Origin: the human T2T-CHM13v2.0 reference genome, Homo sapiens
Assembly (NCBI GenBank): GCA_009914755.4
Contig: CP086569.2
Coordinates: forward strand, 448,001-512,000
Direction: 5' to 3'
Length of the DNA: 64,000 nt
Shown: positions 52,150-53,520 of the stretch, in pieces
How the letters are laid out: every line of letters starts with the position of its first letter
How positions within the stretch are numbered: position 1 is the first letter of the stretch
Translations under genes and position numbers: made by a program
The notes under the pieces: model-generated
Seen by the model: only the letters and a program-made list of their open reading frames with translations
Databases searched by the model: none
Told to the model about the DNA's origin: nothing

Positions 52150-53520
52150 GTTTCTCTTTAGAGACGGAATTTCAATCTTGTTGCCCAGGCTGGAGTGCAG
52201 TGGCACAATCTCGGCTCACCGCAACCTCCGCCTCCCGGGTTCAAGCCATTCTCCTGCCTCAGCCTCCCGAGTAGCTGGGATTACAGGCACCTGCCACCAG
52301 GCCTGGGTAACTTTCTGGTATTTTTAGTAGAGACAGGGTTTCAGCCTCCCGAGTAGCTGGGATTACAGGCACCTGCCACCAGGCCTGGGTAACTTTCTGG
52401 TATTTTTAGTAGAGACAGGGTTTCAGCCTCCCGAGTAGCTGGGATTACAGGCACCTGCCACCAGGCCTGGGTAACTTTCTGGTATTTTTAGTAGAGACAG
52501 GGTTTCAGCCTCCCGAGTAGCTGGGATTACAGGCACCTGCCACCAGGCCTGGGTAACTTTCTGGTATTTTTAGTAGAGACAGGGTTTCGGCCTCCCGAGT
52601 AGCTGGGATTACAGGCACCTGCCACCAGGCCTGGGTAACTTTCTGGTATTTTTAGTAGAGACAGGGTTTCGGCCTCCCGAGTAGCTGGGATTACAGGCAC
52701 CTGCCACCAGGCCTGGGTAACTTTCTGGTATTTTTAGTAGAGACAGGGTTTCGGCCTCCCGAGTAGCTGGGATTACAGGCACCTGCCACCAGGCCTGGGT
52801 AACTTTCTGGTATTTTTAGTAGAGACAGGGTTTCAGCCTCCCGAGTAGCTGGGATTACAGGCACCTGCCACCAGGCCTGGGTAACTTTCTGGTAGTTTTA
52901 GTAGAGACAGGGTTTCGGCCTCCCGAGTAGCTGGGATTACAGGCACCTGCCACCAGGCCTGGGTAACTTTCTGGTATTTTTAGTAGAGACAGGGTTTCGG
53001 CCTCCCGAGTAGCTGGGATTACAGGCACCTGCCACCAGGCCTGGGTAACTTTCTGGTATTTTTAGTACAGACAGGGTTTCGGCCTCCTGAGTAGCTGGGA
53101 TTACAGGCACCTGCCACCAGGCCTGGGTAACTTTCTGGTAGTTTTAGTAGAGACAGGGTTTCAGCCTCCCGAGTAGCTGGGATTACAGGCACCTGCCACC
53201 AGGCCTGGGTAACTTTCTGGTATTTTTAGTACAGACAGGGTTTCGGCCTCCTGAGTAGCTGGGATTACAGGCACCTGCCACCAGGCCTGGGTAACTTTCT
53301 GGTAGTTTTAGTAGAGACAGGGTTTCAGCCTCCCGAGTAGCTGGGATTACAGGCACCTGCCACCAGGCCTGGGTAATTTTTTTGCATTTTTGGTGGAGAC
53401 AGTTTTTTGCCGTGTTGGCCCGGCTGGCCTCAAACTCCTGACCTCAGGTTGACCTGCCCGCTTTGTCCCTCGCAAAGTGCTGGGATTACAGGCGTGAGCC
53501 ACCGCACCTGGCCTGAATCT
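52150..53520 (-). mobile_element. Alu (antisense) whose central region is expanded into an 82-bp VNTR of about 14 copies (52262-53390)
   Basis: Unit gcctcccgagtagctgggattacaggcacctgccaccaggcctgggtaactttctggtatttttagtagagacagggtttc.g repeats with period 82 bp (52262, 52344, ...). Variants tttcagcc/tttcggcc, tatttttag/tagttttag, gtagagac/gtacagac. Confidence 0.9.

What the first reader, a model, noticed from the sequence alone, without database searches (positions are those of the whole stretch)
52150..53520. 82-bp VNTR (about 14 copies) generated inside an antisense Alu, downstream of SHOXa exon 6a and upstream of exon 6b
An Alu's central segment (antisense ...gcctcccgagtagctgggattacaggcacctgccacc... 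plus a non-Alu insert aggcctgggtaactttctgg and tatttttagtagagacagggtttc) is reiterated with a strict 82-bp period from 52262 to about 53390. Three diagnostic variant positions (a/g, t/g, g/c) are distributed in a patchwork across copies. This is an Alu-seeded minisatellite roughly 2.5-3.7 kb past the SHOXa stop codon, probably inside or just beyond the SHOXa 3'UTR and in the intron leading to exon 6b.
Basis: seen in the sequence. Interest (0 to 1): 0.5.

Follow-up and report, generated by a model that had tools for sequence, protein, structure and literature searches.

The report
Alu-derived 82-bp minisatellite beside SHOX
A stretch of one old Alu repeat just past the end of the human SHOX gene's main last exon has been copied head-to-tail about 14 times; it is real, but it is an ordinary, already catalogued kind of repeat with no sign of a function.

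Summary
Tandem Repeats Finder reports one array at 52259-53402 with period 82, 14.0 copies, 97% matches and no indels. The novel unit-to-unit junction occurs exactly 13 times at 82-bp spacing, against 0 expected by chance.

The window is human SHOX. The array lies about 360 bp past the published end of exon 6a. It is intronic for the exon-7 and exon-6b isoforms.

The whole block 52150-53514 is a single antisense Alu. It is bounded by a 10-bp target-site duplication that occurs nowhere else in the window. Reduced to one unit, it gives a full-length 297-bp Alu.

Three details of the finding are wrong:
- The "non-Alu insert" is the diverged Alu linker region.
- There are four variable positions, not three.
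- Exon 7 lies between the array and exon 6b.

The array is already catalogued. Ahmed and Liang (2012, Supplementary Table 3) list it at hg19 chrX:607927-609157, with its chrY PAR1 copy, with the same 82-bp consensus, 15.01 copies, derived from Alu positions 104-184. So the reference and this window differ by one unit.

Best explanation: a neutral Alu-seeded minisatellite, started by a microhomology-mediated duplication and grown by unequal exchange or slippage in recombination-rich PAR1. It has no PRDM9 motif, no hairpin potential, no long ORF and no RNA-family match above threshold. Interest is low.

The parts
52140..52149 (.). Left target-site duplication GAATCTGAAC
   Evidence: This exact 10-mer occurs only twice in the 64-kb window, at 52140 and 53515, immediately flanking the Alu.
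52150..52159 (-). Degenerate poly(A) tail of the Alu (GTTTCTCTTT on the + strand, AAAGAGAAAC in the sense orientation)
   Evidence: Read from the sequence. It aligns to the T-run of the antisense Alu consensus.
52160..52261 (-). Unrepeated arm of the Alu, the distal part of the right monomer (Alu sense positions about 183-282)
   Evidence: 9.0% mismatch to an Alu consensus over 100 bp. Sub-threshold Metazoa_SRP match on the minus strand at 52159-52307.
52262..53327 (-). Thirteen full 82-bp units (Alu sense positions about 103-182: end of the left monomer, A-rich linker, start of the right monomer)
   Evidence: TRF. Unit table with 0-3 mismatches per unit and mean pairwise difference 1.8%. Thirteen junction matches. 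Ahmed and Liang map the unit to AluY positions 184-104, minus strand.
53328..53376 (-). Partial 14th unit, 49 bp identical to the unit consensus
53377..53409 (-). Degenerate edge segment: 33 bp homologous to unit positions 50-82, with 9 mismatches
   Evidence: Three of the differences are unit-specific and about six are specific to the edge copy, judged against the Alu consensus.
53410..53514 (-). Unrepeated arm of the Alu, the left monomer (Alu sense positions 1-102), plus one extra base
   Evidence: 11.8% mismatch over 102 bp. Sub-threshold Metazoa_SRP match on the minus strand at 53394-53512.
53515..53524 (.). Right target-site duplication GAATCTGAAC, followed by TTTTAAAA (an L1-endonuclease-type target site)
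49468..51900 (+). Context: SHOX exon 6a (acceptor AG at 49466-49467, stop TGA at 49711-49713). The end is placed using the published exon length of 2433 bp.
   Evidence: tblastn, sequence, Durand et al. 2011 Table 2. Their exon 6a primer maps to 51762-51781.
63859..64000 (+). Context: start of SHOX exon 6b ([14 protein letters not shown]), itself an exonised antisense Alu. It runs off the end of the window.
   Evidence: Exon length of 627 bp from Durand et al. 2011.

Best explanation
This is a neutral Alu-derived minisatellite. Step 1: an Alu retrotransposed in antisense orientation about 250 bp beyond the end of SHOX exon 6a. Step 2: an 82-bp central segment of that Alu (sense positions about 103-182) was duplicated in tandem. 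This created a new junction, ...GGGTTTCA|GCCTCCC..., where the two parental sites share only the 3-bp microhomology TCA. Step 3: once two copies existed, out-of-register pairing added and homogenised units in blocks of one to three. The pairing could occur by unequal sister-chromatid or allelic exchange, by gene conversion during meiotic break repair, or by replication slippage. This produced 13.6 near-identical copies here and one more in the hg19 reference. The array has no function of its own. It sits in sequence that is removed as intron from the SHOX exon-7 and exon-6b transcripts. Shown here: the anatomy, the single-Alu origin, the junction, the block structure, the copy-number difference and the position relative to exons. 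Inferred: the molecular mechanism of the first duplication and of later growth, the role of PAR1 recombination, and neutrality.
For: Anatomy:
- TRF gives period 82, 14.0 copies, no indels.
- The identical junction occurs 13 times.
- A 10-bp TSD that occurs only at these two places in the window brackets 52150-53514, next to TTTTAAAA.
- Left arm plus one unit plus right arm aligns end to end with a 289-bp Alu consensus as a 297-bp element.
- Sub-threshold 7SL/SRP matches on the minus strand lie in both arms.

Age:
- The arms and the unit are 9-12% from the Alu consensus, whereas units differ from each other by 1.8% on average. The array is therefore much younger than the insertion.

Growth in blocks:
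- The unit types run a,a,a,b,b,b,a,c,b,d,e,d,e, and units 10-11 equal units 12-13.

Instability:
- hg19 holds 15.01 copies of the same consensus against 14.0 here.
- The distance between the Durand primers is 4134 bp here against the published 4193 bp.

Known class:
- Jurka and Gentles 2006 and Ahmed and Liang 2012 describe Alu-derived minisatellites that arise in situ. This very locus is in the 2012 table.
- PAR1 is exceptionally recombinogenic and rich in minisatellite-like repeats, and a very hot crossover hotspot lies within SHOX.

No functional signature:
- No PRDM9 13-mer.
- Unit folding no better than shuffles, z about +0.4.
- No ORF above 58 aa.
- Only sub-threshold, Alu-type Rfam matches.
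Against: The microhomology at the founding junction is only 3 bp, so the 'short direct repeat' model is weakly supported. The ancestral junction base (A or G) is ambiguous, because the edge copy carries G. Nothing here measures recombination, break formation or mutation at the array. Neutrality is an absence-of-evidence argument: no expression, chromatin or population data could be consulted. The last 33 bp of the terminal copy differ from the units at 9 positions while the preceding 49 bp are identical. This sharp step is not explained in detail.
Confidence: 0.85

Rival explanations
1. The array is a regulatory VNTR. Its length would tune SHOX 3' end processing or isoform choice (ending at exon 6a versus splicing on to exon 7 or 6b), or enhancer or insulator activity. 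Possible routes are its repeated antisense-Alu splice-like signals (TATTTTTAG|TAG and TGG|GTAACT in every unit) or its two CpGs per unit.
For: The array sits about 360 bp past the exon 6a end and inside the intron removed in 6a-to-7-1, 5-to-7 and 5-to-6b transcripts. An antisense Alu is demonstrably exonised at this very gene, in exon 6b. Copy number varies.
Against: No paper found links this array to SHOX expression or phenotype. The pseudo-introns between successive splice-like sites would be only 21 nt long. The 256-bp RT-PCR product in Durand et al. cannot contain any of the array. Thousands of comparable TE-derived minisatellites exist with no known function.
Confidence: 0.05
2. The array is a recombination-associated element of PAR1. 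It would be a PRDM9-binding or axis- or break-promoting repeat that is maintained or expanded because it attracts meiotic breaks, by analogy with the PRDM9-motif minisatellites of human PAR1 or the mouse mo-2 arrays.
For: Hinch et al. 2014 report that many PAR1 PRDM9 binding peaks are minisatellite-like repeats with periods of 4-101 bp, and that SHOX holds a very hot hotspot. A PAR1 evolution paper suggests a recombinogenic role for PAR1 repeats.
Against: The 13-mer CCNCCNTNNCCNC has no match anywhere in the array. The six matches in the window lie elsewhere and are no more than chance would give. The array is only 1.1 kb long. The position of the mapped SHOX hotspot relative to the array could not be established.
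Confidence: 0.05
3. The array is an assembly artefact: a spuriously expanded Alu segment.
For: Near-identical 82-bp units are hard to assemble from short reads. No independent copy was found in the metagenome, prokaryotic-genome or viral collections.
Against: The same unit consensus is reported in hg19 with a different copy number, 15.01, so two assemblies carry it. The units carry a non-periodic mosaic of four variants. The flanks form a coherent single Alu with a TSD.
Confidence: 0.02
4. The block is a cluster of several independent Alu insertions or an SVA-type composite, not an internal expansion of one Alu.
For: TRF also reports adjacent whole Alus elsewhere in the window as 'repeats' (for example 44838-45701).
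Against: There is one TSD pair, one tail and one head. All 13 junctions are identical and join internal Alu positions. There is no CCCTCT hexamer region or SINE-R part as in SVA (sequence).
Confidence: 0.01

Closest known systems
Alu-derived minisatellites (Jurka and Gentles 2006, Gene 365:21; Ahmed and Liang 2012, PMC3389668)
   Same: The unit is an internal Alu segment amplified in situ within its host Alu. Units resemble each other far more than they resemble any consensus. This exact locus is entry TR ID 169559076 (chrX:607927-609157, with its chrY PAR1 copy) in Supplementary Table 3 of the 2012 paper, with the identical 82-bp consensus.
   Different: With 14-15 units it is at the long end of the class; mean repeat numbers for Alu-derived TRs are about 2.3-2.4. 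Only 3 bp of microhomology flank the founding duplication, rather than a clear short direct repeat. The catalogue labels the source AluY, whereas the 9-12% divergence of the arms from my Alu consensus suggests an older element.
Classical hypervariable minisatellites of subtelomeric regions and PAR1 (Jeffreys-type; the PRDM9-motif tandem repeats in PAR1 described by Hinch et al. 2014)
   Same: Unit length in the tens of bp, head-to-tail arrangement, interspersed variant units, block duplications, a location in a terminal and highly recombining region, and length differences between haplotypes.
   Different: No PRDM9 13-mer in the unit. GC content is moderate at 53%. The array derives from a transposable element. 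Its mutation rate is unknown.
Other Alu-containing tandem arrays in the same window (9898-10946, 19283-19589, 21133-22391, 60915-61608, 61797-62230)
   Same: All are tandem amplifications of part or all of an Alu within the SHOX locus.
   Different: They have different Alu segments, periods (79-410 bp) and orientations, fewer copies (2-6) and lower unit identity (77-93%). They arose independently.
SVA VNTR region
   Same: A retroelement-associated variable tandem array with Alu-like content.
   Different: SVA is a composite mobile element (hexamer, Alu-like, VNTR, SINE-R) whose VNTR travels with it. Here an ordinary Alu expanded after insertion, and no SVA parts are present.

Membership tests
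Alu SINE insertion | About 300-bp dimeric body alignable end to end with the Alu consensus | tested here: met
   Left arm plus one unit plus right arm gives 297 bp, aligned over the full 289-bp consensus. Divergence is 9-12%.
Alu SINE insertion | 7SL/SRP RNA ancestry detectable | tested here: inconclusive
   Metazoa_SRP matches on the minus strand in both arms (38.9 and 20.9 bits) fall below the gathering score of 70, as expected for Alu rather than true 7SL.
Alu SINE insertion | 3' A-rich tail and flanking target-site duplication at an L1-endonuclease-type site | tested here: met
   The tail reads AAAGAGAAAC in the sense orientation. The 10-bp TSD GAATCTGAAC occurs only at 52140 and 53515. 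TTTTAAAA abuts the TSD.
Minisatellite / VNTR | Head-to-tail array of units of about 10-100 bp | tested here: met
   Period 82, 14.0 copies, 0% indels.
Minisatellite / VNTR | Copy number varies between haplotypes | tested here: met
   14.0 copies (1144 bp) here against 15.01 copies (1231 bp) in hg19 with the same consensus. Only two alleles were seen, and population variability is not testable with these tools.
Alu-derived minisatellite (Jurka and Gentles model) | Unit is a sub-segment of an Alu, amplified in situ inside the host element | tested here: met
   Units differ by 1.8% from each other and by about 11% from the Alu consensus.
Alu-derived minisatellite (Jurka and Gentles model) | Short direct repeats at the boundaries of the founding duplication | tested here: inconclusive
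   Only the 3 bp TCA are shared between ...CCTCA|GCC and ...TTTCA|CC. The edge copy now reads TTTTG, so the ancestral state is uncertain.
PRDM9-motif tandem repeats of PAR1 (Hinch et al. 2014) | Multiple copies of the CCNCCNTNNCCNC motif in the array | tested here: not met
   No match within 52150-53514 on either strand.
mir-1268 / mir-3135 (Alu-derived miRNA families) | Score at or above the Rfam gathering threshold | tested here: not met
   Best mir-1268 score is 45.7 bits against a threshold of 83. mir-3135 scores 38.4 against 80. These are generic Alu similarity.

The most novel reading that the evidence does not exclude
The most novel reading not excluded is that the length of this Alu-derived array influences SHOX dosage. 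It lies immediately past the exon 6a end and inside the intron used by the exon-7 and exon-6b isoforms. Its length could alter how often SHOX transcripts end at exon 6a rather than being spliced onward, or it could act as a local meiotic break or instability focus contributing to SHOX-region rearrangements. Either would make it a common modifier of SHOX dosage.
Probability: 0.04. Interest if true: 0.5.

Novelty: already known. Interest (0 to 1): 0.1.

Why it matters
It matters little beyond annotation. It is a clean textbook example of a minisatellite born inside an Alu, in a region (PAR1, SHOX) where length polymorphisms complicate deletion and duplication diagnostics and short-read mapping. 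If its length affected SHOX isoform use or local recombination, it would be relevant to height and to SHOX-deficiency variability. Nothing found here points that way.

Tried and rejected
1. Independent copies in public collections. The unit-specific 20-mer gave one metagenome hit (L001). It has no other similarity to the window, so it is a chance match. Two scans of prokaryotic genome contigs and one viral scan found nothing.

2. PRDM9 13-mer. It is absent from the array.

3. Hairpin-driven slippage. Single-stranded DNA folds of the units on both strands are no more stable than shuffles, with z about +0.3 to +0.4.

4. Coding potential. The longest ORF is 58 aa, and 82 is not a multiple of 3.

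5. RNA families. Only sub-threshold Alu-type matches were found.

6. Literature on a SHOX VNTR. Searches for SHOX with VNTR, minisatellite or tandem repeat found no study of this array. It appears only in the catalogue.

7. Position of the May et al. 2002 SHOX crossover hotspot relative to the array. This was not recoverable from the papers held.

8. Exact exon 6a donor and exon 7 acceptors. I tried to derive them from the published 256-bp product and the published exon lengths. No consistent solution emerged, probably because the A34 run and CTTT repeat lengths differ from the reference.

9. Other SHOX-window arrays in the Ahmed and Liang table. None were found; they fall below that paper's 95% identity filter, or the stored file is truncated.

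Full report
**Observation**

Tandem Repeats Finder reports a single strong array at 52259-53402: period 82, 14.0 copies, 97% matches, no indels, score 2148. I cut the array into 82-bp units from 52262.
- Thirteen full units have 0-3 mismatches to their consensus.
- A terminal copy follows. Its first 49 bp are identical to the consensus and its last 33 bp carry 9 mismatches.
- The sequence that exists only where one unit abuts the next, GACAGGGTTTCRGCCTCCYGAGTAGC, occurs 13 times at exact 82-bp spacing. None were found in 100 shuffles.

The period is therefore strictly constant and the array is far beyond chance. Units 10-11 are repeated exactly as units 12-13, a 164-bp higher-order duplication.

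**Where it is**

- exon 2 at 36200-36490
- exon 3 at 39919-40131
- exons 4 and 5 within 45933-46223
- exon 6a at 49456-49710

The stop codon TGA is at 49711-49713. The exon 6a acceptor AG is at 49466-49467. Durand et al. 2011 (PMC3063249, Table 2) give exon 6a as 2433 bp, which places its end near 51900. Their exon 6a primer maps to 51762-51781.

The Alu therefore starts about 250 bp, and the array about 360 bp, beyond the published exon 6a end. It is just outside the SHOXa 3' UTR, not within it.

Durand et al. also showed that exon 7-1 is spliced to the end of exon 6a, giving a 256-bp product across 4193 genomic bp. The reverse primer maps to 55876-55895. So the 1.36-kb Alu-plus-array is removed as intron in that isoform. 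It is also intronic in the exon 5-to-7-2/7-3 and exon 5-to-6b transcripts. Exon 6b ([14 protein letters not shown]) starts at 63859 and runs off the window.

It omits exon 7, which lies between the array and exon 6b.

**What it is**

The exact 10-mer GAATCTGAAC occurs only twice in the window, at 52140 and 53515. These two copies bracket a block with the following features:
- In the sense (minus-strand) orientation it starts with an Alu head (GGCCAGGTGCGGTGGCTC...).
- It ends with a degenerate A-rich tail (AAAGAGAAAC).
- TTTTAAAA abuts the duplication, as expected for an L1-endonuclease target. This last point is an inference from established knowledge of target-primed reverse transcription.

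Joining the left arm, one unit and the right arm gives 297 bp that align end to end with a 289-bp Alu consensus.

It has a 2-bp insertion, which the edge copy shares, and a few substitutions. It is Alu sequence, not an insert.

Rfam gives only sub-threshold matches, all of the kind any Alu produces: Metazoa_SRP on the minus strand in both arms, and mir-1268 in each unit.

The unit corresponds to Alu sense positions about 103-182. This covers the end of the left monomer, the A-rich linker and the start of the right monomer.

**Already known**

Supplementary Table 3 of Ahmed and Liang 2012 (PMC3389668) is titled "A complete list of all 7,276 TE-derived TRs". It lists TR ID 169559076 at chrX:607927-609157 and its PAR1 twin at chrY:557927-559157. 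The entry gives unit length 82, 15.01 repeats, 98% identity, matched TE AluY, minus strand, positions 184-104. Its consensus is letter for letter the one TRF returned here.

So the array is catalogued and its Alu origin is already recorded. The hg19 array is 1231 bp against 1144 bp here, one unit more plus 5 bp of end extension. The primer-to-primer distance also differs: 4134 bp here against the published 4193 bp. The 59-bp deficit is 82 bp for the array, offset by about 23 bp elsewhere. The CTTT repeat at 53882-54055 or the A34 run at 55792-55825 are the likely sources; this is an inference.

Two assemblies thus carry the array at different lengths.

**How it arose (inference from anatomy)**

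The new junction joins ...GGGTTTCA to GCCTCCC.... The parental sites...CCTCA|GCC... and ...TTTCA|CC..., share only TCA. The founding event therefore looks like a microhomology-mediated tandem duplication, in the spirit of Jurka and Gentles' short-direct-repeat model (as described). Three bp is weak support.

The arms and the unit are 9-12% from the Alu consensus, while units differ from one another by 1.8% on average. The array is much younger than the insertion, or it is kept homogeneous by turnover.

Runs of identical units and the exact two-unit duplication point to growth by out-of-register exchange or slippage in blocks of one to three units. All four combinations of the variants at positions 60 and 82 occur. 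This could mean exchange between units, but position 82 is part of a CpG and may have mutated recurrently.

PAR1 has an obligatory male crossover, is rich in minisatellite-like repeats, and SHOX contains one of the hottest known crossover hotspots. That setting plausibly favours such arrays. The same 64-kb window holds five more Alu-containing tandem arrays.

**Tests for a function**

All tests were negative:
- There is no PRDM9 13-mer in the array. The six matches in the window lie elsewhere and are at chance level.
- Single-stranded DNA folds of the units are no better than shuffles.
- There is no ORF above 58 aa.
- No RNA family matches above threshold.
- No paper ties this array to SHOX expression or disease.

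**Limits**

- No human or primate assemblies, population data, chromatin maps or expression maps could be queried. Scans of the metagenome, prokaryote and viral collections returned nothing relevant.
Both are corroborated by published data: the Alu positions, and the primers and exon lengths.
- The sharp step in the terminal copy (49 identical bp, then 9 differences in 33 bp) is not explained in detail.

**Verdict**

The feature is an ordinary, already catalogued Alu-derived minisatellite and is most likely neutral. Interest is low.

Noticed in passing
window 9898-10946; 19283-19589; 21133-22391; 60915-61608; 61797-62230: Five further tandem arrays built from Alu sequence lie in the same 64-kb window. 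They are: a 165-bp unit (Alu sense 113-276); a 130-bp unit x2.4 (antisense Alu 72-203); a unit of about 377-410 bp x3 (a whole Alu plus flank); a 132-bp unit x5.2 (Alu 24-149); and a 79-bp unit x5.5 (Alu 241-292 plus A tail plus about 22 bp of flank). This is an unusually dense set of Alu-seeded arrays for one locus.
   Followed up: partly
window 63841-63905: SHOX exon 6b is an exonised antisense Alu. The Alu's poly-T (tttttttttttttt) followed by AG serves as the acceptor, and the SHOXb-specific tail [14 protein letters not shown] is translated from the Alu's antisense strand.
   Followed up: partly
window 47825-49110: A GC-rich 27-bp minisatellite (47 copies, 84% matches; unit GAGGCTTGGGGACCTGGTGTCCCGGGA) lies in intron 5 and ends about 360 bp before the exon 6a acceptor. 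It is not Alu-derived.
   Followed up: no
window 3756-5743: A 34-bp minisatellite with 59 copies shows 67- and 101-bp higher-order periods. It lies upstream of SHOX and is not Alu-derived.
   Followed up: no
window 27926-29128; 31135-32575; 33522-34893: Three kilobase-scale polypurine/polypyrimidine (AG/CT) tracts lie upstream of SHOX exon 2.
   Followed up: no
window 51762-55895: The distance between the Durand et al. exon 6a and exon 7-1 primers is 4134 bp here against the published 4193 bp. After allowing 82 bp for the array, about 23 bp of extra length must lie elsewhere. The CTTT repeat at 53882-54055 or the A34 run at 55792-55825 are the likely sources.
   Followed up: partly
window 50600-51900: No AATAAA or ATTAAA lies within about 1.2 kb upstream of the published exon 6a end (about 51900); the nearest is ATTAAA at 50617. 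An A-rich run (AAAAAAAAAGAGAGAG) lies about 30 bp before that end. The annotated 3' end might therefore reflect internal priming or a non-canonical signal.
   Followed up: no
window 53328-53409: The terminal copy of the 82-bp array shows a sharp step: 49 bp identical to the unit consensus, then 9 mismatches in 33 bp. About six of these changes are specific to the edge copy.
   Followed up: partly
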